This document shows, piece by piece, positions 25,087-61,565 of a stretch of DNA of 64,000 nt (positions are counted from its first letter, which is position 1; the number at the start of each line of letters is the position of its first letter). The stretch is from Amoebidium appalachense (taxonomy: Eukaryota > Protista > Ichthyosporea). The stretch lies in the NCBI GenBank assembly GCA_963693365.1, contig CAVNZM010000009.1:10606243-10670242 (forward strand), written 5' to 3'. A program made the translations under genes and the position numbers. The notes below the pieces were generated by a model. That model was not told the DNA's origin and searched no databases. It saw nothing but the letters and a program-made list of their open reading frames with translations.

Positions 25087-26790
25087 TACGGACGGCTCCA
25101 TGTTTTTATAGTAATAATAATAATAAAGCTCGGGGCCCGGGGCCTCGACGCCGGACAACTGGATATTGCCCCGCATCAACCCCTTGATATCCGCCGCATT
25201 TAATTGGATGACCGACAACCCATATATAGCTAATTTCATGTCGATTCTACTGCACAGAATTGGCCAATGATTTTTATCATATTGGCTAGCCTTTTTTGGA
25301 AGCGCCGCTAACCAATCCGATCGGGCCCAAAACAAACCAGATTTGATCGTACGGCCCCAGATTTTGGCGCACTATGACTCGAATTGGGATGATACGATCA
25401 AATCTGTAGGGCGCTGGCAGTATGCCGGCGACAGCGTACGATCACATCTGGATATCTCAGATTTAACCAGCGCGCTTCGTCAGCTTCCGTAATATTTCAG
25501 ATTTCATCTTTTGAAAATCACCTGGGCATGTGGGCCCGGCCTCTGCAGCAAAGGCAGCCCCCGATGGGTTACGTATACCCACTTGTACTCCCCCGGGGTC
25601 TCCCAAGTTCATACCCACGACGAACCCTAAGGTGTACTGCACTACCGTGGACGCCAAGACCGTGTACGTATCCGAGAAAGTCAAAACGTATGCAGAGTCG
25701 GTGGCCCAGACCCACGGGGCTACCCAGGCTATGGCAGCCCTTCAAGTTGCCGCAGCTGTGATCGGCCCTGCACCCAACCCGCCGCCCTCGGGTGGCATCT
25801 GACCCTGCACCTGAGGGTACCGATGTTGTTTTGTGTGGGTAAACGGAGAAGCAGAGAGCACAGATGGGTGTTATGTTATACACAACACAGAGACACACGG
25901 GAGAAACACAACCGGAGAGGTGGAACGATTTCTGGGACCATAGGAAATGATTTCAACTGCTTGATATTTATTTCAAGATGACATTCTTCTAATGAAAGTA
26001 CGGAAGCATTTAACAAAATGAAACCACTTATGTATCTATTAGTTCACATCATATATTTATACATGTTCTTAACATAACACGTCTAAATATAAGTATTCCT
26101 AATAGTTGGGGAACATAGAGCAATTCTACGTCGTGGGAAAAGAAGGAAAAGGAATGAGGATAGAAAGGAATGGAATGGGAAAGGAATCGAATAGAATTAA
26201 TGAGGAATGTAGGTTACTATATTTGGGACAATATAACGAGCTCTGATTGGATGACTTATTTAGACATTGACGCAAACAACAATACGTCTGCGCGGGCTAA
26301 ATAGCTCGATGTGTACACAGATCTAAGATATCTGTGCACACGGAAACGGAAAGGAAAGAAAGAAAGGAAGAAAGGAAAAGGGAAAAGGAAACGAACAACA
26401 ACAAACTAATAAACATGTATAAAAACTCAACCTCTAAGTCTTGCCGTTAATCATGGGAAGATGACATCCCCACTCAAGGGTTGGAAGTTGGGTTCTCGTG
26501 AAGTTTGTTGATGCGACCGTTGATGTCAATACTCTCACACATGTAGAAGCAGGTGCCGTGACGTCACAGTCAAGTTTCCCCACTCGAGAAGACAAATGGA
26601 GAAGACTTGAAGTGGCAATGTTGTAATACGTAGTATTTACATATGGTAAGATCTTCTCAGTTTGTGTTATGTTTCAGTTCATATGCTTAGTGTAATGCCA
26701 CACTCCCATTATGTAAAGTGTAGCATCGATCTCCGATATGCTTGTATACTTGTAATCGTGTTGTATCGGCTTTAATCGTGTATCACACAT

Positions 26791-27912
26791 GTGCGACCAT
26801 TAAAACGTCCAGCAGATACACCTACCACAGATGCACAACCAGAAAAACATCGCCTTAGACTAAGCGCAACACCTATTTACAATACACTACCCATTCAGAA
26901 TAACACCACACCACTCCGTAGAAACACAATAACAACCATGCCGAAACTTTCGGTTGATACAGTACTGGCAGAACTTGCCCTCGTTAAGAAACAGCTAAAT
27001 GAGCTGTTACCACTCAAGAACATGATAGAAAAACTCCAAACAGAAAATACCCAACTCAAGCTCACCATTGATTCACTCACAGCCCAGCTAAACATTAGTG
27101 GATCGCAAAACCCCAAAACTCATGAGCAAACATCTCGCGACGGAGACATTTCCACCCCAACACAAAACAACACAGGACCGGAAGCACAGCTCCCGGCAGA
27201 GTTCCTAGAATATGCGAACTCTCGTAAAACACCCGAGCTCCGCCAAATTGCCAAGGAAACATATGCCAGCATTCTTGCAGGCAACGAGTACCGCCGCAAC
27301 TCCCCTCCCAAACCGCCGGCTAAGGGGAACACCCAAGCAAACGGTAACATCAACATCCCACCCAAATACGAGAGGGTGTATTTCAAAGTCAAGCACGGCA
27401 GACGCCCACACAGGGCCATGTGGTCCATCTTCAAGGCTCTCGGCTTCCGGTGCTCTCGCATCCTTTGTCTGTCCTTCATTGGATACGATGTGCTGGAAGT
27501 AGCAGTACGGGGCGACTATAACCGTGCGTTCATCCGTGACGCGACAAAGGGGTGTGGAAGCTTCTTCACCCACCTCCCAAGCTACGACCCATGCGCGCCG
27601 GAAAACATTCAGAAAGCAGACAAAGAACGTAAAGTGTCTGCTAAGAATGCGTGCGCCACACGTTGTCGTGTACGCATCAGCAAGGCAAAAGAGTTCCTCG
27701 CAAAGTTGGAAAACGATGCTACGAGCGTGATAGACACGGACACGAAGGAACCAATGTTTTCTGGTGAGAAACTGCTCGAGCGCAAACGCCGATGCGAGAT
27801 GGAAATCGAGCTCTTCTGCGAACTGTTCGCGCTGGCGGAAGGTCGTGCATACGACCCCGTAAGCGACAAGTGGGAACCAACCCCACAGGTGTCGGACCAA
27901 ACCGATGCCTAA
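26791..27912 (+). CDS. Retrotransposon ORF1 (coiled coil plus RNA-binding-like domain); first ATG at 26938
   Basis: 373-codon open frame directly upstream of ORF2 with 8-nt overlap (ATGCCTAA); heptad segment LKNMIEKLQTENTQLKLTIDSLTAQL. Confidence 0.8.
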   Translation: MRPLKRPADTPTTDAQPEKHRLRLSATPIYNTLPIQNNTTPLRRNTITTMPKLSVDTVLAELALVKKQLNELLPLKNMIEKLQTENTQLKLTIDSLTAQLNISGSQNPKTHEQTSRDGDISTPTQNNTGPEAQLPAEFLEYANSRKTPELRQIAKETYASILAGNEYRRNSPPKPPAKGNTQANGNINIPPKYERVYFKVKHGRRPHRAMWSIFKALGFRCSRILCLSFIGYDVLEVAVRGDYNRAFIRDATKGCGSFFTHLPSYDPCAPENIQKADKERKVSAKNACATRCRVRISKAKEFLAKLENDATSVIDTDTKEPMFSGEKLLERKRRCEMEIELFCELFALAEGRAYDPVSDKWEPTPQVSDQTDA

Positions 27913-30900
27913 TTTATCCTTCTTCTTCTGGAATGCTCGGACACTGGGCCCCCAAAAGGGCCTCCCCCCCGGGACACTCGACGATAAAATCAGCTACATA
28001 CAACAACAGACAAACAACCACACGTTTACAGTGATTTGCGAAACACAGTTTAAAAACCACCACAAATTCAACTCTACATTGGTCGACACATCCACACACC
28101 CCGGTTACGCGAAAAACCGAGGCATTATTGTACTTGCCGCACCACACGTGAGAGTGAAGTGCAAACCGGTAGCAAAAACGGAATTCTCGGTTTCTATAGA
28201 GTTTCTTTCTAATGTTTTTACTTTTGTATATTACCCACCATCTATGTCGGTTGTCGAATTGACTCACGAGTTGTCACAGTTACCAATGTCCACTGTTATT
28301 TTAGGTGATTTTAACACGCGACTCCACCACACAGACACACTGCAAGTGAGTGTCGGGTACCCATCTAAGCCCCCGGAGCGTGCTATCCCTTTAGCAAGGT
28401 ATGTCCAAAGTCACACTTTGCGGTTCCCTCAAATATCCCATGCCCACAACACCGACTGGGGAGTGGCCTTTTGGCCATCAACCATGTCAAAACTCTCTCT
28501 CCCTCCTAACCTCTCTAGGTCATCTGACCACTCTCCTATCCTTTTCCTACCTAAGATCTCCCTTGATCTGCTCCCCCCTCCCCCTCCCACCTTTCGCCTC
28601 CGTCTATCCCAGCTTAAGTCACAGTGGGGTAGAGTTGATGTATGTGTATGCTATGCTACGAAACACCCTATATATATGCGCCTATTAGAATCTGCACAAG
28701 CCAGGCCAGATTCACATCTCGTACTAGATACATGCACTAACTTTATTGTTGATGATTTGATAGATCTCGGTGATTATGCTGGCGGTGGTAGGAAGGAATA
28801 CCCCGATGCTCTCTTGTTACCAAACACCACTCCCGCTAGACTAGGTGAACCCCTGTCTCAAAAGGAAAGCTTGCGCCGGCTTGCTAGTATGAATCGATTT
28901 GGCCCCCCTGCTCGTATTATTGGTGATACCACTGGAGACCCCCTCATAGACTCTGATAAGTATTTCTCGGAACTGTTTAAAGATAGGACCCCCGCTCAGA
29001 AACCTATTGTGTGGCCTGTAGACCCATCTATCCCCATAGAATCGATCCTCCCCTTTTTCAGTCCCGATGCCATATGGTCTGTGATATCTAGTTATAGCTC
29101 TAGTAAGTCTTGTGGACCTGATGGACTCCCTGCTGGGTTTCTTAAAATCCTTGTTCCCTCCTACCCACAAAAGGAAAGTGATCGTGCTATTAAACCTGAT
29201 CTTACTATCATGTTAAGCTCTCTCTTTTCTTGGTGTGTTAAATGTGGACATGTCCCGTCATCTTGGTTAGATACCTTAGTGATCCCCATAGTTAAGAAGG
29301 ACTCTGAGGGCCCCATATCATCCTTTCGCCCCATTACACTAACCCAGGTTGTTCGTAGATTCTTTGAAGCTTGCTTACTTAGGTTATTTGCACATCACCC
29401 TAGGTTTCAATCTATTCTTCACATACACCCATGCCAATCCGCTTTTCGTAAAAACAATTCATGTTATGTTCAAATAATGGCACTGCACGATTCTATGCAA
29501 GTTGGTGCACAATATGTTGGCTTTATTGATTGGAAAACTGCTTACGATTCTGTCTCCCCTGGTCTCCTATGGGAAAAGCTTGCTGCACGGGGTGTACCAC
29601 ACTGCATTGGTGTTCTGTTAGAAGCACTCTTGTCTCAAACCTATGGTAGAGCTGTGGTTAATGGGCATCTTTCATATGGTTTTGCTCGTACTAGAGGTCT
29701 CTTGCAGGGTTCATTGCTTAGCCCCTTTTTGTTTAACCTATTTATAGATGATTTGGCTGTCAAGATTTACGCCGAAAACGATGACCCTATTAATAACTTT
29801 CCGCCTGCACTTCTCTATGCTGATGATCTGTCCCTCCTTGCCCGTACCCCTAGACGCCTGCAAAGATTGTTCGATGTAGTGTCAGAGTGGTGCAAGGCAA
29901 ACCTTATGATCCTTAACATAGACAAATGTGGTGTTCTTGTACCTGATATAGCTAACAATTTACACACATTTACATTATCATCTAAACCTGTACCTATAGT
30001 TCCAGAATACAAATATCTTGGTGTTCCGGTTGATTCTGTTGGTGTTATGTTTCCCCATATGGTCGAAAAGAGGGTAGAGTTGGCTCGTAAGCGGTTAGCT
30101 TTCTTCTCGGCTAATATTTTTAAAGACACACCCCTCCATCCTTCTATTAGACTTACATTTATTCGCACTTTTGTCTTCCCGGCATGTGAATATGGTTTAC
30201 CCCTTCTCGCCGCTTGGATCAAGAAAGAGAGAACTAGAGCGCTTAAACCCTTGGCAAATTTCCTTGAAGCAGAAGTTGCCTCCTTTCTATCTAACAACTG
30301 TTGTAAACCTGGGCCTGTAACGCTCTCGATATATGGTCTGGTCCCAATAGCTGCTAGAGTATCCTATCTCGCGCTGAAATTCAATAAGCACATAAGCCGC
30401 TTAAAGAAGTATTTGCCCTCCCACCCTCTCTTCTCTATCCGACCTGTCCCCTCCTCACCTCTCCCCTCTTTCCTCCCCTCTCTCTCCCCTTCTCCCCTGG
30501 GCACAAATACAAATAAACCCCGCAATAGTGTGTGTGTGACTTTGGACTGCCACTTACTTATTAAACATGTACACAATCACAAGATAATCACGCAATATAA
30601 CAAATGGAAAAAGATACCACACGACACTAGACCCGATGAAAGCATACACCTTGAAAAACTAAGCCTTATGTCTCGTTTTATATATACTGACCGCCTCAAC
30701 CATATTGCCAAATATGGCACTCGCAAGTGTATAACACCTAAATACATATTACCTTCCTGTAGAACTGGTCTTTCTCTAGCTGATGGTATTATTGATCAAT
30801 TACCACGCTTTTACTGTACACGTGCTATACAGTGGAGATCTAATAAGTATAAGGTGGCATCATTTGCATGCCCAAACAACACACACACACACCAGTTTAA

Positions 30901-31099
30901 CCGGTCATGTATCGCCAAATGTAGTTTGATAGACCACATAATACCGCAACACACACACGTCACATTCACAACAGACACCCAGAAAGATAGCCTACCTGTA
31001 AATTACAACATCCTTGATTTTATACTAAACACGCGTAACTACGACCTGTTTATTAGATGTATTGATTGGCTTGAGAAACACATCACTACAAAATTATAG
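27905..31099 (+). CDS. Retrotransposon ORF2: apurinic-like endonuclease plus reverse transcriptase
   Basis: APE motifs FWNAR, VICET, ILGDFN, SDH; RT motifs GPDG, FRPITL, QSAFR, FIDWKTAYDSV, GLLQGSLLSPFLFNLFIDDL, LYADD, YKYLGV; 1064 aa uninterrupted. Confidence 0.97.
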   Translation: MPNLSFFFWNARTLGPQKGLPPGTLDDKISYIQQQTNNHTFTVICETQFKNHHKFNSTLVDTSTHPGYAKNRGIIVLAAPHVRVKCKPVAKTEFSVSIEFLSNVFTFVYYPPSMSVVELTHELSQLPMSTVILGDFNTRLHHTDTLQVSVGYPSKPPERAIPLARYVQSHTLRFPQISHAHNTDWGVAFWPSTMSKLSLPPNLSRSSDHSPILFLPKISLDLLPPPPPTFRLRLSQLKSQWGRVDVCVCYATKHPIYMRLLESAQARPDSHLVLDTCTNFIVDDLIDLGDYAGGGRKEYPDALLLPNTTPARLGEPLSQKESLRRLASMNRFGPPARIIGDTTGDPLIDSDKYFSELFKDRTPAQKPIVWPVDPSIPIESILPFFSPDAIWSVISSYSSSKSCGPDGLPAGFLKILVPSYPQKESDRAIKPDLTIMLSSLFSWCVKCGHVPSSWLDTLVIPIVKKDSEGPISSFRPITLTQVVRRFFEACLLRLFAHHPRFQSILHIHPCQSAFRKNNSCYVQIMALHDSMQVGAQYVGFIDWKTAYDSVSPGLLWEKLAARGVPHCIGVLLEALLSQTYGRAVVNGHLSYGFARTRGLLQGSLLSPFLFNLFIDDLAVKIYAENDDPINNFPPALLYADDLSLLARTPRRLQRLFDVVSEWCKANLMILNIDKCGVLVPDIANNLHTFTLSSKPVPIVPEYKYLGVPVDSVGVMFPHMVEKRVELARKRLAFFSANIFKDTPLHPSIRLTFIRTFVFPACEYGLPLLAAWIKKERTRALKPLANFLEAEVASFLSNNCCKPGPVTLSIYGLVPIAARVSYLALKFNKHISRLKKYLPSHPLFSIRPVPSSPLPSFLPSLSPSPLGTNTNKPRNSVCVTLDCHLLIKHVHNHKIITQYNKWKKIPHDTRPDESIHLEKLSLMSRFIYTDRLNHIAKYGTRKCITPKYILPSCRTGLSLADGIIDQLPRFYCTRAIQWRSNKYKVASFACPNNTHTHQFNRSCIAKCSLIDHIIPQHTHVTFTTDTQKDSLPVNYNILDFILNTRNYDLFIRCIDWLEKHITTKL

Positions 31100-31119
31100 C
31101 GCACGCGCACACACACACA

Positions 31120-31172
<53 letters not shown>

Positions 31173-31204
31173 CCAGCTGATACCGAGTGTCCCGAGGGGA
31201 GCCC

Positions 31205-31247
<43 letters not shown>

Positions 31248-32765
31248 GGGGAACCCCAACTAATTGATTTCTCCTTGTAGTCTTTATGGTGTCTCGTAGA
31301 GAAAGTAAACCCTGATATATAGTCACCACCCGACATCTATGTACGTGATCATGATATACCGCTGAGGGGATATTCCGAGCAAAACCCCCCCCCCATACCT
31401 GAGACTGGTTCTCTTTGCCTCGAGTAAACAGCGTAAACCCCATTGTAATATCAATTAGATTATTTATATGTGTGTACACGGATCCACCCACTCAGGGAGA
31501 GACGTGTACATGTTTGTGTGTACATAAATATCTCTGGTTATAGTTATACTATTACTATCTTGTTTGTTGATCTGTGCTCTCTTTTCCTTTCTCTTTCTCC
31601 TTCCTTATTTTCTTTTCTTTCTCTCCTTGTCTTCATGTGTATAATCGTATTTCTTTTCTACTAATATATGTTAGGTAGATTTGTGTTACGTAATATGTGT
31701 TGATTGGACGGTAAAATACTTAGGCTACACTTAGAATAGCATGTGTGATTAGACTTCATTAATTTACTTTAGTTTTCATGTGTTGCCGGGCTTTAACCAA
31801 TCATCAAGGTTAAGTGTGATATGTCTGAGTCTTTGCAGTGTGTCATAGGTTAGAACTTCCTTGATGATGACACGAGTTGATCTTAACTAGTGTCTGTGTC
31901 CTATCATGTACGTCTCCGCGTACCAGATCTCTCTGAAAGCAATTGGTTCTTAGTGATTGGTTTCTATTAGAGATAGATCTGATTTCCGATTGGTCGAAAA
32001 TCATGTATGAATTAGACTTAGAGGAATTTAAGGTATTTATTCGGAGATCAAAATAAATTGAGTTCAGTCGTGTCTAAACATTGATATCTGTTGTGTACAT
32101 ACACTGCTCCGATCGTTCCGTGTTTTGTTGTTGTGTGTTTGTGGTGTTTTCACACTGCACCACTGTGTCTCTGCCTACATCCCAAATACTTATACAATTT
32201 TACAGGCAAGCAGGGGAAGAAAACCAAAACGGAAGAAGCACACAACGACGGTTGCCTCGGAAGACTCGGAACATGACGGTAGCCAGCGATGATATATATA
32301 AAAGAAAACACTAGTGTATGTGTGACGTGTTGGTGGCTAATATTTTATACTGGGGCCCACCCAGATAAACACAAGGCATGAACATCTTGTGGACAGATTT
32401 ATAGACTGGTGGTCAACCAGTTAAGACACGGGGAAGTTACGTCCCGAGGACTAGGTTTAGAATGGCAGTCAACCAGCACGCCATGGCTATAGAAATTTAT
32501 TTATACTGGGACGCCATCCCAGTTCGACATATACATAAGTCGAATATCAAAGAAAACCAATTTAAATGGTGGTGTATAAATAAACGACGGATGGTGCCAG
32601 AAAGAATTCCCCACTGAAGATGCACACACTGAAGATCGATGAAGACAGCAGTAGACTTTCGTTGGGAGGTGTCCCTACACGGTGATGTGTAGACCACTGG
32701 CCAGGGCCCCAACCTACTTGAAGACCACTGTAGATGAAGGGGGGGGGGGGGGGGGGGGGGCACAC

Positions 32766-33792
32766 TCAGTCACGAAGACTGGGGGATGCACGGTGCTGTT
32801 CGAGGGAGGGCCCAGGCACTGGCCTTGGTGAAGATGTCGGCCACGTTGTCCTTGGTGGACACGTAGGTGACGACCACATCCCCACTCTTGATGTAGTCCT
32901 TCGTGTTGTGGTACCGGACGGCAAAGTGTTTGGTCCGGTGCTTGATGCTGTTGGTGTGCAGGAGGGCAATGGTGGGTTGATTGTCACAATAGACGGGGGT
33001 GGGGTTGGTCATCGGGTAGCCGAGTTCACGGAGGAGATCACGGTGCCAGATGACGTTTTTTTGCAGGGCACGTGCTGTTCGGACGGAGGAGGAGGACCCG
33101 GACCCAGAGCCGATGAGACCTTCACTGATCTCTGCAGCTCGGATGTCACTGATTAGACGTTTGTAGGTCTCGTAGCTGATGTTACGACGGAAGTAGTCGG
33201 CAATCATGGCCTGGATGTCGGAACAAACTAACTTACGGTTCTTCTTGAGGTGGATGACTCGGAAGAAGTTATCAACCATGGTCTTGTGAGGGATGGGCTC
33301 TTCGAGGATGTGCAGGGTAGTGCACAGACGGCCCCGGGCGTGCCATGGTGAGGTAGGTCGTAACGGTCTTGAAGTCCTTGAGTTCAAGCTCATGGTAGTC
33401 GAGGAGGATTTGACGAGCACGATCTTCACGTTCAGCCGCATAGGTCATGCGGAGGTTGTGGAAAGCTTGGGCAGGTGACACATCATCGTGGATTTGACCA
33501 GAGTTATACAGCTCATCATTCGAGACGAGTTGAGTAAACATCTGTTCAAGGAAGTTGGAAGCCTCGGTGTAGGCCTCCTCAGTGTCATAGCCATGCCACT
33601 CGTTCTCGTCGGAAGGGTCGACCCACTCGGGGCCTTGATGACGGGCACTAACTTGGCCGCGGTGGTAGTACGTAGGTCCTGGAAGATGACGGGTTCCCAC
33701 TCATAATAGGTGAGACGTTTGCCGGACTTCTTGTCCGTGGTGTCCTCCCCTCTCCAGGGGGTGAGGTTGAGGTACGCAGGTTTCTCCGACAT
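32766..33792 (-). pseudogene. Internally deleted Ty1/copia gag-pol: gag N-terminal half joined to the RNase H C-terminus, with frameshifts
   Basis: Copia RNase H end motifs WHRDLLRELG, VYCDNQPTI, RTKHFAVRYH, YVSTKDNVADIFTKA; upstream gag-like helical segment over three frames; no protease, integrase or RT motifs in between. Confidence 0.85.
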
Positions 33793-34935
33793 GGTGATCA
33801 ATCAGTCAGATGATGCGCGAGAGAGGAATCAGATCGGTATTCAAATTTGAATATTTTTGATTGCAGCTAGAGTATGTGTTGCGAGAGCGTGCGAAAACGG
33901 GCCTTTAACCTGTTGTTTTGTACGGGTCTAAGGGAGCAGAGTGCACAGAGGTGTCATGTAAAACACGACTAACACCGTGAATAAAGAGAGGGCAATCGGA
34001 GTTGTTCACGAGACATTTGAAATCTGTATGTGTTGTGAGAGCGTGCGAAAATGGGCCTTTAACCTGTTGTTTTGTATGGGTCTAAGGGAGCAGAGTGCAC
34101 AGAGGTGTCATGTAAAACACGACTAACACAATAAAGAGAGGGCAATCGGAGTTGTTCACGAGACATTGAAAGATTTCAAACAACAATGGATCCTTTATTG
34201 TGCTCTCAGGTTCTTTTTTTTTTGAACTTGCGACTTATCATCTTATCACAACTAAAGAGGGAGAACCAATCGGTTCTATCAGAAGATAGAAAAACTCATT
34301 CCGACAGAGCATACGCATTCCAACTTCCGACTTAACTAGAGTTTAAAAACTCGTACTTAAATAAATTAAGTAATTACTTATACATCTAGTCACTATTAAC
34401 TCACATATATATTTATATTCGTCTCTATAAAGAAACTCGTTTAAATACATATATCTCCTAATAGTCGACACTCTCAAAGTGAAGACACATTGCAATAAAC
34501 CGAATTCCATATGTATCTATTGTCCAATCACAACACATATATTTATAGACAGGAATGCACAACACCGTGACGATCTACAGATGTACTCGCTCGCGACTAT
34601 TGGCGAGCCATCCTATTGAGAACAAAACTAAGCCATTTTGAAATAAAAGAAAGACAACGAATGTAGCTAGCCAATCACGCTACCTCTCAGATAAACAGAG
34701 GAGAGCAAACAGAAATAAAATACAATAAGTTCTTATCAGGCAAGAGAGCCAGGTGTGCACAGATCTACAGAAATCCGTGCTCACAGAAACAAGGGAGAGA
34801 GAGATAGGGGGGGGGGGGGGGGGGGGGAGACAGAGAGAGAGAGAGAGAGAGAAAAGAGAAAAAATACAAACAAAGCTAAGACACATACATACTTCGAAAG
34901 GCTCTTGCTGTCATACGTAGTGACGTATTCCAACA
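32766..34935 (-). mobile_element. Defective Copia LTR retrotransposon (5' LTR 34065-34935, duplicated U5-PBS, no 3' LTR seen)
   Basis: LTR on the - strand starts TGTTGGAATAC and ends CAAAACAACA, followed by PBS-like GGTTAAAGGCCC; about 155-bp tandem duplication at 33872-34020 and 34026-34170. Confidence 0.85.
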
Positions 34936-41102: not shown

Positions 41103-42203
41103 GGCGAACAATGTTTCTGCGACCCGTGTTTAAAGGTGATGTTTGGACCCGCAACTGAGCCTGCCACGCAATTTATACGCCGCCGTACCGTCAGCCCCGT
41201 GGGCCGTGAGCCGGCAGACTCACCTGTACATTGCCCGGGCCGATGGTCACCAATCACCATCATGGTCAGTCGTGACTGGCGCGTGCACAAAGTTATGATC
41301 ATTATGATTTGCGGCTTGGCCATGTGTAGCCATGTTGAATCAGGCTGAGGCCCATTGCAAGGTTATCATTGGAGGAGGAACATATTCGCCCTAACATGTT
41401 GCATTTATAACCTACTGTGTGGTAACTTGGGCATCATATACAGTCGGCAGGGGCCACGGCCCACGCCGCCACGCGCCAACTCATGAGCGCGCACGGGCCT
41501 GGTTGAACCTGCCTTGCCCGTCACCGTCGTCCGCGTCGTACGTGTGCGGCTCACTACCGGACCACAGTGTGGTATCCAACACATTCCAGAGTTTAAAAAG
41601 TTACCAAACATGGTTACTGCTCTCCGGCACAGTTTTAACCTGTTGGCAAGCAGGGGTTGAATTACGACTCACTGAAATCGTCGTATCATGTACATTTAGG
41701 GTCAATACAAGTAGCACTGTGGGGTGCTGTTTCGGTTTATCTTAGCAGCCAAATAGACCACAATAGTCAATTTTTTGGTGTGTTTTCATACGGAAATGGG
41801 CGTTTTTCTAGGGAAAAGTGATCAGGTGAGCATTTTGGCACTCCAGTGTGGAATATAATAAAGCCATATGTTTGCCAATCGGGGTGTACAAATGCTAACG
41901 GAGTGTATAAGAGATATAGCCTAGTTCGTTCGTACGGGGTCTATACGAGTCGTAGATGAGACTGTTGGAGTGCAGACTTACGCTCACTCCACAATATGTG
42001 TATGTTAGCTTTACAATTGGTTCCGTGTACACAGACACACGCTGACACTCGATCACCACATGCACATCTGCATAGTTGAGGAATGTTGCCAATTGTGTTT
42101 TGACTGCAAACGATTGGTTCACTGGTCCCAGAGATCTCTAAATGAAAGTAACCAATCCGATTAGCACCTGGCATCCGGATTACATTCCAGACTGCTGCCC
42201 CAC

Positions 42204-42215
42204 GGGTATATAAGC
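42204..42215 (+). promoter_or_regulatory. Putative TATA box in the TRIM LTR (repeated in all four LTRs)
   Basis: GGGTATATAAG with an upstream CCAAT (AACCAATC near 42150), about 25 nt before the 13-bp array. Confidence 0.55.
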
Positions 42216-42236
42216 CACGTCTCTGCCAGGTGCAGT

Positions 42237-42323
42237 CATGGAGTTCAGTCATGGAGTTCAGTCATGGAGTTCAGTCATGGAGTTCAGTCATGGAGTTCAG
42301 TCATGGAGTTCAGTCATGGAGTT
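42237..42323 (+). repeat. 13-bp tandem array (CATGGAGTTCAGT) inside the LTR; also at 42903-43067, 43228-43301 and 43963-44049
   Basis: 7, 13, 6 and 7 copies respectively, counted from the sequence. Confidence 0.92.
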
Positions 42324-43142
42324 AACACACTGAAAGCAGTAAAAAAAAACGGGTCAGCGCCCAAGCGCGCCACGACGACCCTAGTCACAGCGGACTCTAC
42401 TTCCAACAGGGTTATGGGCCCAGACACGACACCGCGGCCTCTAACTTCATTAGAGACTTTCGCTTCCACAAACTCCATCCGCAGCAGCCTGCGACATCAA
42501 CGTCAAGTATTCCACTTCATTGGCGGGGCACGCACCACAGTGGAATGCACACCCCGGTCTACCCTGCAAGTAGCCACACTCACTCTCTCTTCTCTAGTGG
42601 TGTGTACACTTCTCCAATTGGGTAGGGGTGTTGGAGTGCAGACTTACGCTCACTCCACAATATGTGTATGTTAGCTTTACAATTGGTTCCGTGTACACAG
42701 ACACACGCTGACACTCGATCACCACATGCACATCTGCATAGTTGAGGAATGTTGCCAATTGTGTTTTGACTGCAAACGATTGGTTCACTGGTCCCAGAGA
42801 TCTCTAAATGAAAGTAACCAATCCGATTAGCGCCTGGCATCCGGATTACATTCCAGACTGCTGCCCCACGGGTATATAAGCCACGGCTCTGCCAGGTGCA
42901 GACATGGAGTTAAGTCATGGAGTTCAGTCATGGAGTTTAGTCATGGAGTTCAGTCATGGAGTTCAGTCATGGAGTTCAGACATGGAGTTCAGTCATGGAG
43001 TTCAGTCATGGAGTTCAGTCATGGAGTTCAGTCATGGAGTTCAGTCATGGAGTTCAGTCATGGAGTTAACACACTGAAAGCAGTAAAAAAAACGGGTCAG
43101 CGCCCAAGCGCGCCACGACGACCCTAGTCACAGCGGACTCTA

Positions 43143-44323
43143 GTTGGAAGTAGAGTCCGCTGTGACTAGGGTCGTCGTGGCGCGCTTGGGCGCTGACCCG
43201 TTTTTTTTTTACTGCTTTCAGTGTGTTAACTCCATGACTGAACTCCATGACTGAACTCCATGACTGAACTCCATGACTGAACTCCATGACTGAACTCCAT
43301 GACTGCACCTGGCAGAGACGTGGCTTATATACCCGTGGGGCAGCAGTCTGGAATGTAATCCGGATGCCAGGTGCTAATCGGATTGGTTACTTTCATTTAG
43401 AGATCTCTGGGACCAGTGAACCAATCGTTTGCAGTCAAAACACAATTGGCAACATTCCTCAACTATGCAGATGTGCATGTGGTGATCGAGTGTCAGCGTG
43501 TGTCTGTGTACACGGAACCAATTGTAAAGCTAACATACACATATTGTGGAGTGAGCGTAAGTCTGCACTCCAACACCCCTACCCAATTGGAGAAGTGTAC
43601 ACACCACTAGAGAAGAGAGAGTGAGTGTGGCTGCTTGCAGGGTAGACCGGGGTGTGCATTCCACTGTGGTGCGTGCCCCGCCAATGAAGTGGAATACTTG
43701 ACGTTGATGTCGCAGGCTGCTGCGGATGGAGTTTGTGGAAGCGAAAGTCTCTACTTCACGGAAATACGCTCGCGGGTGTAGGGTACAGCCTAGAAGTCGG
43801 TTTCTGGGCTCCTCCGTTCAAGGCGTCGTAGGGGACGTGAAGTTAGAGGCCGCGGTGTCGTGTCTGGGCCCATAACCCTGTTGGAAGTAGAGTCCGCTGT
43901 GACTAGGGTCGTCGTGGCGCGCTTGGGCGCTGACCCGTTTTTTTTACTGCTTTCAGTGTGTTAACTCCATGACTGAACTCCATGACTGAACTCCATGACT
44001 GAACTCCATGACTGAACTCCATGACTGAACTCCATGACTGAACTCCATGACTGCACCTGGCAGAGACGTGGCTTATATACCCGTGGGGCAGCAGTCTGGA
44101 ATGTAATCCGGATGCCAGGTGCTAATCGGATTGGTTACTTTCATTTAGAGATCTCTGGGACCAGTGAACCAATCGTTTGCAGTCAAAACACAATTGGCAA
44201 CATTCCTCAACTATGCAGATGTGCATGTGGTGATCGAGTGTCAGCGTGTGTCTGTGTACACGGAACCAATTGTAAAGCTAACATACACATATTGTGGAGT
44301 GAGCGTAAGTCTGCACTCCAACA
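43143..44323 (-). mobile_element. TRIM-like element B, inverted relative to A (5' LTR 43879-44323, interior 43576-43878, 3' LTR 43143-43575)
   Basis: Reverse complement of A with the same PBS/PPT; interior 83 bp longer. Confidence 0.92.
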
Positions 44324-44697
44324 GAGACAACTGCCAATACCATTTGGTCTGTTTGGTCTGCTGTTGGTCACTTGTTGAGTTGCGTCATTAATTACGAGAG
44401 TAAAAAATTGACTCTCTTGTTATAACTTATCAGGTTGTTTCTTTTGTTTGTCGGGCGCACCTGAACTAAAACTCGGCAAAAGGCTTCCGACCCAGCCCCT
44501 CCCAGAACCGTGCCATGAACGGGCTTTCCCATTCGCTGCCTAGATTAATATTATATTGGCGCATGCGCGACGTCTGCTCCCCTTCTAGTCTCTCTCCTGA
44601 AACCGAAAGGCTTCTCTCAGAGGCCCTCCCGGGCCCCCCCCTCTCTCTCTAGCTGGATCTAGATAGATCTGTCTCTCCCCCTCTCTCCCTGGCCATG

Positions 44698-58509: not shown

Positions 58510-61168
58510 CTAGCCTGCTGAGGGTGTGCCTGAGGGTGGCTGTGTGCTCTCAAAAGGTGGCTGGGGTACGTCACTGTCGTTACGAGGGCGCTTGGAGTGG
58601 CGATCAAACCCGCACACCTTGCAGGTTGTGACTGTGGCCGGCAACCACCACCGACACACACTGCAAACCCACTGCTCCACTGCTGCTTGACCGGAAAGTG
58701 AGTGGCCTTGGGGGTTTGTCGTTTGTTGGTCCGGGTCACTTTCGTCGTGGGGACGTCGACGCTTGGCTGCCAGCGGCGGTGTGGGCGTGTCTGTGACAGC
58801 CCTGTTGTCTTGCCCTGCCAAAGAGAGTGAACCGGAGTGTGTGTTTGTGGTGGTGGCTGCAGTCCTAACGTCCCAGTAACCAGTGGCTGGTCTGCTGTTC
58901 ACTGTTGTGCAGGTCCGTTCCGAGGACATGCCAGTGGTCTGGGCAACGGCTGTGGTCGTGTTGGTGGCTGCACCCACAGAGCCAGAAGACCCACCAAACC
59001 TTCCAAAGGGAGGAGTCGTGCCAAAGGACGTATTGGTGTTGTTGGAAGGATTGGATCCGAAGGCCTGCAATCTCGTTGGGGAGGTGGGCACGGGTGCATA
59101 CTGGTAGAATTCTCCGAGACCATGGGCAAAGGGCGAGTTTGAAGGAGGTGCACCTCGGTTTGGGTGTGTCCCACAGTGTTGGGGAACGGACGGGTTCTGG
59201 GGGATTCCGAAGGACGGGAACGGTCTCACGGTAGGTGGTTGGGTGGTGGGGAAAGAGGGGAACGGTGTCACAATAGATGGTTGGGTGCCGAGGTTAAAGA
59301 AGGGGAACGGTGTCACGGTAGGTGGTTGGGTGCCGAGGCTAAAAGAGGGGAACGGTGTCACGGTAGGTGGTTGGGTGCCGAGGCTAAAAGAGGGGAATGG
59401 TGTCACGGTAGGTGGTTGGGTGGCGGCGTCTCTGGAAAGCGGCTGTGTGGTAGTCGTGGAGAACCCAAACCCCCCAAACCTACTTGCTCCAGCAGGGGCT
59501 TCACCAAACAAGCTGCGGGGGGGTGACCGTGTGTGCCCAAAACCAAAACCAAAAGCAGCTGGGCGCTCACCCAGTGAGGGTGTTTGCTGGGTAGAGAAAT
59601 GGTCGATGGCTAGCAATTGCACGGTGTCTGGGAGAGGGTCACGAGTCACTGAGGGAGGGTGGCGCAGGTTCTGGTCGAGGGTGGAGCTGCTTGACGAGTT
59701 TATCCCCGAGCCTACTTGTGGTGCAACGTGCCAGTTAGCTGTAGATCTCTCACCACAACTCAGTTTTTTGGATCAACATATTTGGGCTCAGTTTCTTGGA
59801 CCAACATATTTGGGCTGCCCTCTCCCAACTAATGAGCCTGCCCCCTATCCAACCTTCTTGCACCGAAGCCCTTACTGAGCTTGGCTTCTTTGGTACATAC
59901 AATAATAGAAACCGGAAACAGCTCCTTTACTTGGTGCCTCTGTGACCTTGCCAATGACCCACTTGTCAGATGCGCATGCTCCAACATGCACATCCCACCT
60001 TCTATCAAGATCCTCATATTTCAAACCTTGCACCACTCGTATTTTCGAGACACAGCTGTTGTGCTTCTACAATATGTGCACGCACACTGTCGTAGCATGC
60101 ACATTACACGCAAACACACACGACCAGAAACCTCTGGCCCCAGATACCTACGTGAAAGTCTCCTAGTCAGTCTGTCGTTTTCGAAGGCCAGGCGCTGGTT
60201 CTGCTTGTTGGCCCTCTCCAGTGCATCCATCAGCAACTGCACATGCTCTTCTTGGGCCTCCTTCATGTGTGTCCCCACTTCGCTCCGCACAAGATCCTCC
60301 ACTTCACAGCCCTCAACAGGGCAGGGCACATTCTCAGAGGCGCACGCCTGGCTGTGTTCTGTGTGAGTTTAGGGGTTAGCTCTTGGTGACATGTACAAGC
60401 AGCAGATCTCGAAAAAAACCACTTGCTTGAAAAACTATCCGGAACCAGGACTCTGAAAACTCCATTTCTCTCATCCCCGTGTCAGGCAATTATAATGCTT
60501 TCAAGCAAGACTGGTTTGCAAAGCTCAAGGTGCTGAGGGCTCTACCCACCTTCGAGTTCACGGCGGGGCACCTGGCCGTCACACAGGGCACACGTGACGA
60601 GCTGGAACGTGCACGTGCGTTTGTGGTCTCCCAGGCGCTCCCTCTCAAACACCTCGTCGCACTCTTCTGCTGGGCAGGGAACGAGCTCCTTGGGACACAC
60701 ACGCAGGTGTTCGCTTAGCGCACCCAGTTTGCAGCGCACTTCACAGCCCTCGTCTTTGTTGATGCAGAACACGTCCAGGTGGTGGTGCAGACGGCGGGCA
60801 AACGGACCAAGTTTCTCTGGTGCTGAGCCTAACTTTACGGGCTTGTTGTCTATGGGGCACACACGGTTTTGCTTGAGGGATTTGTCAATGCATGTCTTGC
60901 AGAACACGTGGCCGCATTCCCGCAGTTCACGGGCGTGGTCAGCAACTGGCACCTCAAGACAGATGACACATGTGAACTCCTCTGCACGAGACTGGTCAAC
61001 AAAAAGCTCGAGATCCAGACTTTCCAAGTTTTCGGTGTATGTTGTTATGGCCATGTTGCCTGTGGGTGTAGGGCTCAGTTGTGGGTTGCTGGTGTTGCTT
61101 GGTGCCTCGTGTTCATGACGTCCAGCACCAGACCGCCCACGAAGGCGAGCTCCCAGAGCTAGGAACAT
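58510..61168 (-). CDS. RING plus TRAF-type zinc-finger protein (probable E3 ligase) with coiled coil, FG-rich tail and C-terminal RanBP2-like zinc finger
   Basis: Exons 60550-61168, 60152-60358, 58510-59738 (both introns phase 1). C3HC3D RING CVIC..CGHVFCKTC..CPID; TRAF fingers CINKDEGC..EHLRVC, CPAEEC..DHKRTC, CALC..EHSQAC, CPVEGC..HMK..H; tail WVCSVC-x10-CKVC. The splice into the last exon is inferred. Confidence 0.8.
59215..59421 (-). repeat. In-frame 45-bp coding repeat (TQPPTVTPFPSFSLG), about 5 copies
   Basis: Seen in DNA and in ORF 58510-59649. Confidence 0.85.
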
Positions 61169-61565
61169 TTGAAATGAAGTCAAAACTGCTACAGTATCCG
61201 TGCACAGGCTCCTAGCAAGAAAAGTCAGTGTGGGGTTTTATCAATGTCGTAGTCGGCGCACATGTAGTTTTCAGTGAACGATGAAAGGTGAACTCATCAC
61301 TGAACTCACCAGGAAGTTTTTGCCCTGCTCCTAGAGCGGTGCGATCCGGATCAATCACGTTGAATCTCTTTTTGGCGCGCAGCCGGCAGATCTCGAGGGC
61401 AAATCACGTGCACGAAAGGTTCACCATGAAAAAAAAATAATTTCTAATGACTTTATAAGGAAAAATCCGGCCATTTCATGCGGCAATAATTCAAGTAGCC
61501 AAAGCCTCCTTGATGATATCCGTACTTTTTTGAGTGTTTGTGTGTGTGTGTGTGTGTGCGCGCGC

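What the first reader, a model, noticed from the sequence alone, without database searches (positions are those of the whole stretch)
41958..44328. Tail-to-tail dimer of two miniature LTR retroelements with one shared 5-bp target-site duplication
Seen: element A (41963-43142, +) and element B (43143-44323, -) form a 2.36-kb quasi-palindrome. The outer flanks are the direct repeat GAGAC (41958-41962 and 44324-44328). Both outer termini are the U3 end of a 5' LTR. At the centre the two U5 ends are fused with 9 nt and 1 nt missing. Established: Ty1/copia integrases make 5-bp TSDs and normally use one U3 and one U5 end of a single cDNA. Inference: two separate cDNAs each gave a U3 end to one integration complex and the free ends were joined by end-joining, or a pre-ligated inverted dimer was integrated. 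The product resembles a foldback/TIR element built from retroelement parts and should transcribe convergently into long dsRNA.
Basis: partly seen in the sequence, partly recalled or inferred. Interest (0 to 1): 0.85.

Follow-up and report, generated by a model that had tools for sequence, protein, structure and literature searches.

The report
Back-to-back mini-retrotransposon pair, one insertion
Two small non-coding jumping-gene copies sit tail-to-tail inside a single five-letter target duplication at a site that is empty in a related organism, likely because one integrase complex inserted two separate DNA copies at once; such inverted pairs are already reported in maize, so this is a clean new example, not a new kind.

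Summary
Two copia-type mini-elements (TRIMs), A (41963-43142, +) and B (43143-44323, -), are fused at their U5 ends (9 and 1 nt missing) between one GAGAC repeat. One run from a related organism holds the empty site: one GAGAC, nothing lost. Two runs from different studies hold both outer U3 junctions; one holds the centre junction at about single-copy depth. These junction contigs fall short of the tool's 31-letter bar, and no long read was available. A and B are different templates, so this is not a fold-back copy. Best reading (0.68, inferred): integrase used the U3 ends of two cDNAs and the leftover U5 ends were end-joined, before or after insertion. The architecture is published: maize 'two inverted TRIMs' with one 5-bp TSD, 6 of 93 tandem TRIMs (PMC4717578). 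The additions here are an empty allele, a base-level centre with no TSD in it, and two distinguishable partners. No sign that the dimer moves as a unit. dsRNA is predicted but untested. The scan's look-ups returned no earlier finding of this element.

The parts
41958..41962 (.). left copy of the 5-bp target-site duplication (GAGAC)
   Evidence: single copy in the empty allele of run X8
41963..42408 (+). element A 5' LTR, 446 nt, TG...CA, 7-nt terminal inverted repeat, TATA-like box at LTR position 245, seven 13-bp repeats; equals B's 5' LTR but for one A in a run
42409..42423 (+). primer-binding site of A; 15 of 15 nt match the antisense of the internal (anticodon-arm) part of initiator tRNA-Met
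   Evidence: oligonucleotide printed in PMC1797187
42409..42628 (+). internal region of A, 220 nt, non-coding, lacks 83 nt that B has
42620..42628 (+). polypurine tract of A, next to the 3' LTR
42629..43142 (+). element A 3' LTR, 514 nt, last 9 nt missing; 13 repeats; private substitutions at LTR positions 204 and 258 plus four variant repeat units
43085..43208 (.). central palindrome: 58-bp perfect arms (43085-43142, 43151-43208) around an 8-nt spacer; U5-U5 joint between 43142 and 43143 with no microhomology and no TSD copy
   Evidence: X3 contig over 43113-43170
43143..43575 (-). element B 3' LTR, 433 nt, last 1 nt missing, six repeats
43576..43584 (-). polypurine tract of B
43576..43878 (-). 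internal region of B, 303 nt, non-coding
   Evidence: contig of depth 379.5 against 19.4 for the flank in X8
43864..43878 (-). primer-binding site of B
43879..44323 (-). element B 5' LTR, 445 nt, intact TG...CA, seven repeats
44324..44328 (.). right copy of the target-site duplication (GAGAC)

Best explanation
This is a young tail-to-tail pair of two different non-autonomous copia-type mini-retrotransposons inside one 5-bp target duplication, likely inserted in a single step by an integrase complex that held the U3 ends of two separate cDNAs, with the two leftover U5 ends likely joined by host end-joining. Shown: the anatomy, the empty site, the two templates, and intact outer ends with a trimmed centre. 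Inferred: a helper element's integrase acting in trans; two cDNAs, probably from one particle; end-joining either before strand transfer (pre-ligated dimer) or after it (repair of the break). The 9+1 nt loss came at joining or by later trimming of the palindrome. All four LTR promoters point inward, so read-through from either 3' LTR would fold into a hairpin of about 150 bp.
For: Empty allele with one GAGAC and nothing lost. Outer ends are perfect TG/CA joints, while the centre is trimmed on both sides with no microhomology and no GAGAC. A and B differ by 83 nt inside and by 4 aligned mismatches. Both internal types occur in run X16, which has no cover of this locus's flanks (records 10 and 15), so both likely exist elsewhere. 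A's 5' LTR carries B's letters at every site where A's 3' LTR differs (six private changes all in one of four LTRs, p about 0.001 if independent), although a fresh cDNA should have identical LTRs (PMC6894440 passages). This fits plus-strand transfer between co-packaged templates. Retroviral integrases join ends of separate DNA molecules in concert in vitro and linearise the target (PMC11054761 passages). Ty1 integrase needs little more than the terminal TG/CA and makes 5-bp TSDs (PMC2939329 passages). X1 holds a head-to-tail LTR-LTR joint with a 3-nt spacer, not a 5-nt TSD, a weak hint that this family's cDNA ends get ligated. Maize has 6 direct and 6 inverted four-LTR pairs (PMC4717578 Table S3), the 1:1 ratio expected from random pairing of ends (my inference).
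Against: One locus only; the history is inferred from the end product. The LTR sharing could come from later gene conversion between the inverted arms, and the six private changes need not be independent. The head-to-tail joint has only 23-26 letters on its short side and is listed in 1 of 4 runs. Central deletions arise readily in palindromes after the fact (PMC8701086 passages), so the lack of a TSD in the centre does not exclude a double insertion. No paper showing two-cDNA integration in vivo for a copia element came up. No autonomous partner could be retrieved.
Confidence: 0.68

Rival explanations
1. One element integrated normally. A second cDNA was then captured in reverse at a break, or by nested integration, within the last few bases of its LTR, using the 7-nt terminal inverted repeat as microhomology on the outer side and blunt joining in the centre.
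For: The LTR's two ends share a 7-nt inverted repeat, so the outermost 7 nt cannot be assigned to U3 or U5. Other copies appear broken or rearranged at the same U5 spot: a contig in X1 and X2 leaves the LTR at the same -9 position, and an X2 contig has a short inverted insert there. Integrase-independent insertion at existing elements is documented for Tf1 (PMC11042837 passages).
Against: It needs a break in a window of about 10 nt, or two extra precise deletions, in a very young insertion. The Tf1 passages read describe direct tandems sharing one LTR, not inverted pairs. No single-element allele is listed in the 3 runs that cover the flanks.
Confidence: 0.14
2. Two successive integrations used the same 5-bp site in opposite orientations, giving TSD-A-TSD-B-TSD. 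The near-perfect palindrome then lost 15 nt at its centre, including the middle TSD.
For: Double insertion is documented for inverted LTR tandems in Drosophila, with a target motif in the junction (PMC5932611 passages). Small asymmetric deletions are the usual fate of palindrome centres.
Against: No GAGAC remnant in the centre. With no site preference, the expected number of such pairs is 0.00001-0.02 per genome for assumed values of 100-2000 copies and 50-500 Mb. No intermediate allele is listed. It does not explain why A's 5' LTR carries B's letters.
Confidence: 0.12
3. The dimer is itself a mobile fold-back-like unit that is copied as a whole.
For: It has long terminal inverted repeats (386 bp perfect) ending TG...CA and its own TSD.
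Against: The centre contig in X3 has depth 64.8, below the single-copy flanks (98.3 and 151). No coding capacity. A transcript cannot regenerate this structure by the normal LTR pathway (established pathway).
Confidence: 0.02
4. The arrangement is an assembly or fold-back read artefact.
For: No long read was available. The junction contigs have under 31 letters on the short side. The centre piece is listed in only 1 of 3 DNA runs.
Against: Both flanks join U3 in two runs from two studies and the centre letters are present in X3's contigs. The arms are not identical copies and the flanks are not mirrored. Hairpins amplify poorly by PCR. In X1 and X2 another contig shares letters with the joint, which would cut the junction piece below the listed lengths (my inference).
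Confidence: 0.04

Closest known systems
Inverted tandem-array TRIM (class R-L4I2) of maize Zma-SMART and Cassandra; Gao et al. 2016, PMC4717578 (section 8, passages and Table S3 read; figure image not available)
   Same: Four LTRs, two internal regions, the two TRIMs inverted, one 5-bp TSD. The example spans 559 bp against a 280-bp monomer and was among the PCR-checked structures. 6 of 93 maize arrays are of this class.
   Different: Whether the maize pairs are tail-to-tail or head-to-head could not be seen. In the parts read, no junction sequence, empty allele or specific mechanism is given; the preprint ascribes arrays in general to homologous recombination, which does not readily give an inverted pair. 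Here the partners are distinguishable variants and the empty site is in hand.
Inverted LTR-retrotransposon tandems of Drosophila melanogaster (Rover); McGurk and Barbash 2018, PMC5932611 (passages; most supplements not readable)
   Same: Two LTR elements directly adjacent in inverted orientation.
   Different: There a target motif sits in the junction, read as double insertion. Here the junction has no target copy and both U5 ends are trimmed.
Two-molecule concerted integration by retroviral integrases in vitro (PMC11054761, passages and figure legend) and relaxed end specificity of Ty1 integrase (PMC2939329, passages)
   Same: Ends of separate DNA molecules are joined across one staggered cut; terminal TG/CA is enough for a 5-bp TSD.
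   Different: Shown in vitro or with overexpressed integrase. Here it would be a natural, inherited product.
Half-tRNA-primed Ty1/copia elements such as Drosophila copia and yeast Ty5 (names and their priming mode recalled, from no call)
   Same: PBS matches the internal part of initiator tRNA-Met, TG...CA ends, 5-bp TSD.
   Different: No coding region, so superfamily placement rests on cis signals alone.
Fold-back / MITE-type DNA elements (recalled)
   Same: Long terminal inverted repeats around a short asymmetric centre, flanked by a TSD.
   Different: Built wholly from LTR-element parts, no transposase, apparently one copy.

Membership tests
TRIM (criteria of PMC4717578) | under 1500 bp with two direct LTRs | tested here: met
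   A 1180 nt, B 1181 nt
TRIM (criteria of PMC4717578) | no retrotransposon proteins | tested here: met
   7 of the 17 open frames of at least 60 aa overlapping the dimer were scanned in Pfam: no retroelement family; only a sub-threshold ApbA match in 2
TRIM (criteria of PMC4717578) | at least two complete copies with different TSDs | tested here: inconclusive
   No genome held. Many other LTR-flank loose ends, and B-type depth about 20 times the flank in X8, show a multi-copy family, but no other TSD could be read
TRIM (criteria of PMC4717578) | PBS and PPT next to the LTRs; 4-6 bp TSD | tested here: met
   the TSD flanks the pair, not each monomer
R-L4I2 tandem-array TRIM | four LTRs and two internal regions, the two units inverted, one flanking TSD | tested here: met
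R-L4I2 tandem-array TRIM | same polarity (tail-to-tail) as the maize cases | not testable with these tools
   figure image and maize sequences not available
Ty1/copia superfamily | 5-bp TSD, TG...CA, initiator-tRNA-Met primer site | tested here: met
Ty1/copia superfamily | integrase before reverse transcriptase in pol; RT phylogeny | not testable with these tools
   no coding region; autonomous partner not retrievable
double insertion at one target site (PMC5932611) | target-site copy kept inside the junction | tested here: not met
   centre has no GAGAC; later deletion not excluded
fold-back / TIR DNA element | the whole unit recurs at several loci | tested here: not met
   centre contig depth 64.8 against flanks 98.3 and 151 in X3, the one run where it is listed; depth is a rough measure
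fold-back / TIR DNA element | mobilised by a DDE transposase that recognises the TIRs | not tested
   none encoded in the frames scanned; genome not held

The most novel reading that the evidence does not exclude
Integrase synapses ends of two co-packaged mini-element cDNAs in trans in living cells. This would be a regular route to inverted LTR pairs, more frequent for short elements, and would explain the maize inverted TRIM class. Each such insertion would be an instant hairpin-RNA locus able to silence its own expanding family.
Probability: 0.3. Interest if true: 0.65.

Novelty: new member of a known kind. Interest (0 to 1): 0.38.

Why it matters
Inverted LTR pairs under one TSD are on record but, in what I could read, without a worked mechanism. 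This locus supplies what a test needs: an empty allele, a base-level centre and two distinguishable partners. If two-cDNA integration is real in vivo, one cDNA per integration complex is not a strict rule for small elements. It would also mean that a burst of copies can create, in one step, hairpin loci of the type that trigger silencing, and fragile palindromes. As a single accident in a high-copy family it matters little to the host unless small RNAs or an effect on the neighbouring gene are shown.

Tried and rejected
No whole genome is held, so other dimers, TSD lengths and the autonomous partner could not be counted. A 20-nt U3 pattern found 0 matches in metagenome contigs. No other copy of the element is in the window. 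Rfam and ARAGORN found nothing in the window. No RNA holder on record. In the one RNA-guess run laid (X13), 8 contigs fit the U5 arms and none spans the centre; this is no evidence for or against transcription. Host lineage not established: a homologue search with the RING/TRAF exon against longer proteins gave no hit at E 1e-10. Fold-back copying of one element was rejected because the arms differ. Summed depths over the LTRs were not used as copy numbers. Contig end points suggest hundreds of copies in X1 and X3 (rough). Paper searches for a tail-to-tail LTR dimer with mechanism: 1 review, listing only; 7, listing; 1 read in passages; 'U3-U3', 0 papers; 155 papers, 25 listed, 1 read in passages; 11 listed, 2 new ones read in passages, not relevant. 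The library lacks most subscription papers, including the older Ty1 integration work. PMC4528315 (one section) and PMC13570524 (passages) gave no inverted pairs. 13 of 17 supplementary files of PMC5932611 were not searched; its Table S2 lists inverted tandems and may bear on novelty. Earlier findings: 2 Penelope notes without bearing, none by place or sequence.

Full report
Observation. Element A runs 41963-43142 on the plus strand: 5' LTR 446 nt, internal region 220 nt, 3' LTR 514 nt lacking its last 9 nt. Element B runs 44323-43143 on the minus strand: 5' LTR 445 nt, internal region 303 nt, 3' LTR 433 nt lacking its last nucleotide. Each has TG...CA ends with a 7-nt inverted repeat, a polypurine tract, and a primer site whose 15 nt match the antisense of the internal part of initiator tRNA-Met as printed in PMC1797187 (one passage). 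Half-tRNA priming as a copia/Ty5 trait is recalled. GAGAC flanks the pair on both sides, exactly 5 nt; the chance of such a match is about 0.002-0.003. Seven of 17 open frames were scanned in Pfam and none matches a retroelement protein.

Is it real? No genome is held, so I used contigs of public runs (22 listed, 20 holders). Four were laid on 41300-44600. X8 (organism C; 7 substitutions and 11 gap letters over about 935 nt of flank) has one contig that skips 41958-44323 with five shared letters. This is the empty site, with one GAGAC and no loss, and it passes the tool's bridging bar. X1 and X3, from two studies, each join the left flank to 26 nt of U3 and the right flank to 25 nt of inverted U3 without mismatch, and list no empty allele. 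X16 covers no flank. Four runs were then laid on the centre. X3 has a 58-nt contig over 43113-43170, no mismatch, depth 64.8 against 151 and 98.3 for its flanks. None is listed for X1, X2 or X13, with 503 pieces not shown. In X1 and X2 another contig shares letters with the joint, which would shorten the junction piece below the listed ones (inference). The filled-site pieces have 25-30 letters on the short side, under the 31-letter bar. That is about the most a short-word assembly can give next to a high-copy repeat (inference), but no read spans the whole structure. X3 or X1 may be the sample behind the window, so they exclude an assembler error better than they show independent biology.

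Two templates. A lacks 83 nt of B's internal region, and the two differ at 4 of 1088 aligned positions. Both internal types are seen in X16, which has no cover of this locus's flanks (records 10 and 15, depths 5.5 and 13.3). B's type alone is well covered in X8, at about 20 times flank depth. So both variants likely exist elsewhere, and the pair is not a fold-back copy of one element. A's own LTRs differ: its 3' LTR has two private substitutions upstream of the repeats, four variant repeat units and 13 repeats, while its 5' LTR equals B's 5' LTR but for one A in a run. A fresh cDNA should carry identical LTRs (PMC6894440 passages). Either A's 5' LTR was copied from a B-type template in a shared particle, or it was converted later by the inverted arm. 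B's LTRs differ only in repeat count and A-run length, so the insertion is young.

Mechanism. The outer joints are perfect and carry a real TSD, the mark of integrase. The centre is trimmed on both sides, has no microhomology and no target copy, the mark of end-joining. The shortest history is one integrase complex holding the U3 ends of two cDNAs, with the free U5 ends ligated before or after strand transfer (0.68). These two orders give the same product. Retroviral integrases join ends of separate molecules in concert in vitro (PMC11054761 passages), and Ty1 integrase accepts DNA with only terminal TG/CA (PMC2939329 passages). A head-to-tail LTR-LTR joint with a 3-nt spacer in X1 (depth about 118, short side 23-26 letters, 1 of 4 runs) hints weakly that this family's ends get ligated.

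Rivals. Capture of a second cDNA at the tip of an existing LTR through the 7-nt terminal repeat (0.14) is helped by other copies broken at the same U5 spot. Double insertion at one site followed by a 15-nt central deletion (0.12) has precedent for each step (PMC5932611; PMC8701086; passages), but 0.02 or fewer such pairs are expected per genome without site preference under assumed copy numbers and genome sizes. An artefact (0.04) and a mobile fold-back unit (0.02) are unlikely; the centre is at about single-copy depth.

Consequences. All four promoters face inward. A transcript starting about 25 nt below the TATA-like box of A's 3' LTR and crossing the centre folds into a stem of about 150 bp with an 8-nt loop (407 nt, -342 kcal/mol; start site inferred). 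No RNA evidence bears on this. The host, and whether it has RNA silencing, are not known. A gene start that looks like a signal peptide lies 856 bp to the left, reading away from the insertion.

Known or new. Gao et al. 2016 (PMC4717578; section 8, passages, Table S3) show a maize array of 'two inverted TRIMs' with one 5-bp TSD, 559 bp against a 280-bp monomer, among PCR-checked structures, and count 6 such arrays in 93. Inverted LTR tandems are also reported in Drosophila. The architecture is therefore known, and this locus meets the tested features of that class; I could not see the polarity of the maize cases. In the parts of those papers that I read there is no empty allele, junction sequence or specific mechanism, and my searches found no paper showing two-cDNA integration in vivo, in a library that lacks most subscription journals. 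The maize table's 6 direct to 6 inverted four-LTR pairs is what random pairing of ends from two molecules would give (my inference, small numbers).

Verdict. A real, young, apparently single-copy inverted TRIM pair with a verified TSD: a new and unusually well-resolved member of a known kind. Interest 0.38. It would deserve about 0.65 if two-cDNA integration proved to be a regular route that yields silencing hairpins (probability 0.3).

Noticed in passing
window 26776-31250 (+): LINE-type element with two long open frames; the second (27863-31099, 1078 aa) has a reverse transcriptase domain (RVT_1, E 6e-28) and is followed by a CA repeat and a poly(A) run. Looks intact.
   Followed up: partly
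window about 32770-33800 (-): By eye, a decayed copia-like RNase H end (label recalled; no Pfam hit). No DNA match to the mini-element.
   Followed up: partly
window 41102 leftwards (-): Open frame starting with a signal-peptide-like stretch and a cysteine-rich segment, 856 bp from the left TSD, so the pair sits in its upstream region.
   Followed up: partly
window 60545-61237 (-): RING finger plus TRAF-type zinc finger exon; no longer homologue at E 1e-10.
   Followed up: partly
run X1, joint 43576 to 43878: Head-to-tail U5-U3 joint with 3 nt between, depth about 118 against 38-48 for the flanks: possible two-LTR circle junction or direct dimer. Short side under 30 letters.
   Followed up: no
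runs X1, X2, X3 around window 43139-43152: Other copies leave the LTR at or near the same spot 9 nt from the U5 end: one runs into a GAG repeat, one has a 5-nt inverted insert, one shares 4 letters of the joint and then unique flank. Possible weak point of the U5 end.
   Followed up: no
runs X1 and X16, loose ends at window 43866; X16 record 14: A different internal sequence follows the same primer site, and a 5043-nt contig carries a related PPT-LTR border: candidates for the autonomous helper.
   Followed up: no
window 43754-43843 (B internal): The 83 nt missing from A are bounded in B by an 8-nt inverted repeat, so the deletion may have come from skipping a hairpin.
   Followed up: no
all four LTRs, from LTR position 271: A 13-bp tandem repeat just below the TATA-like box varies from 6 to 13 units.
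   Followed up: partly
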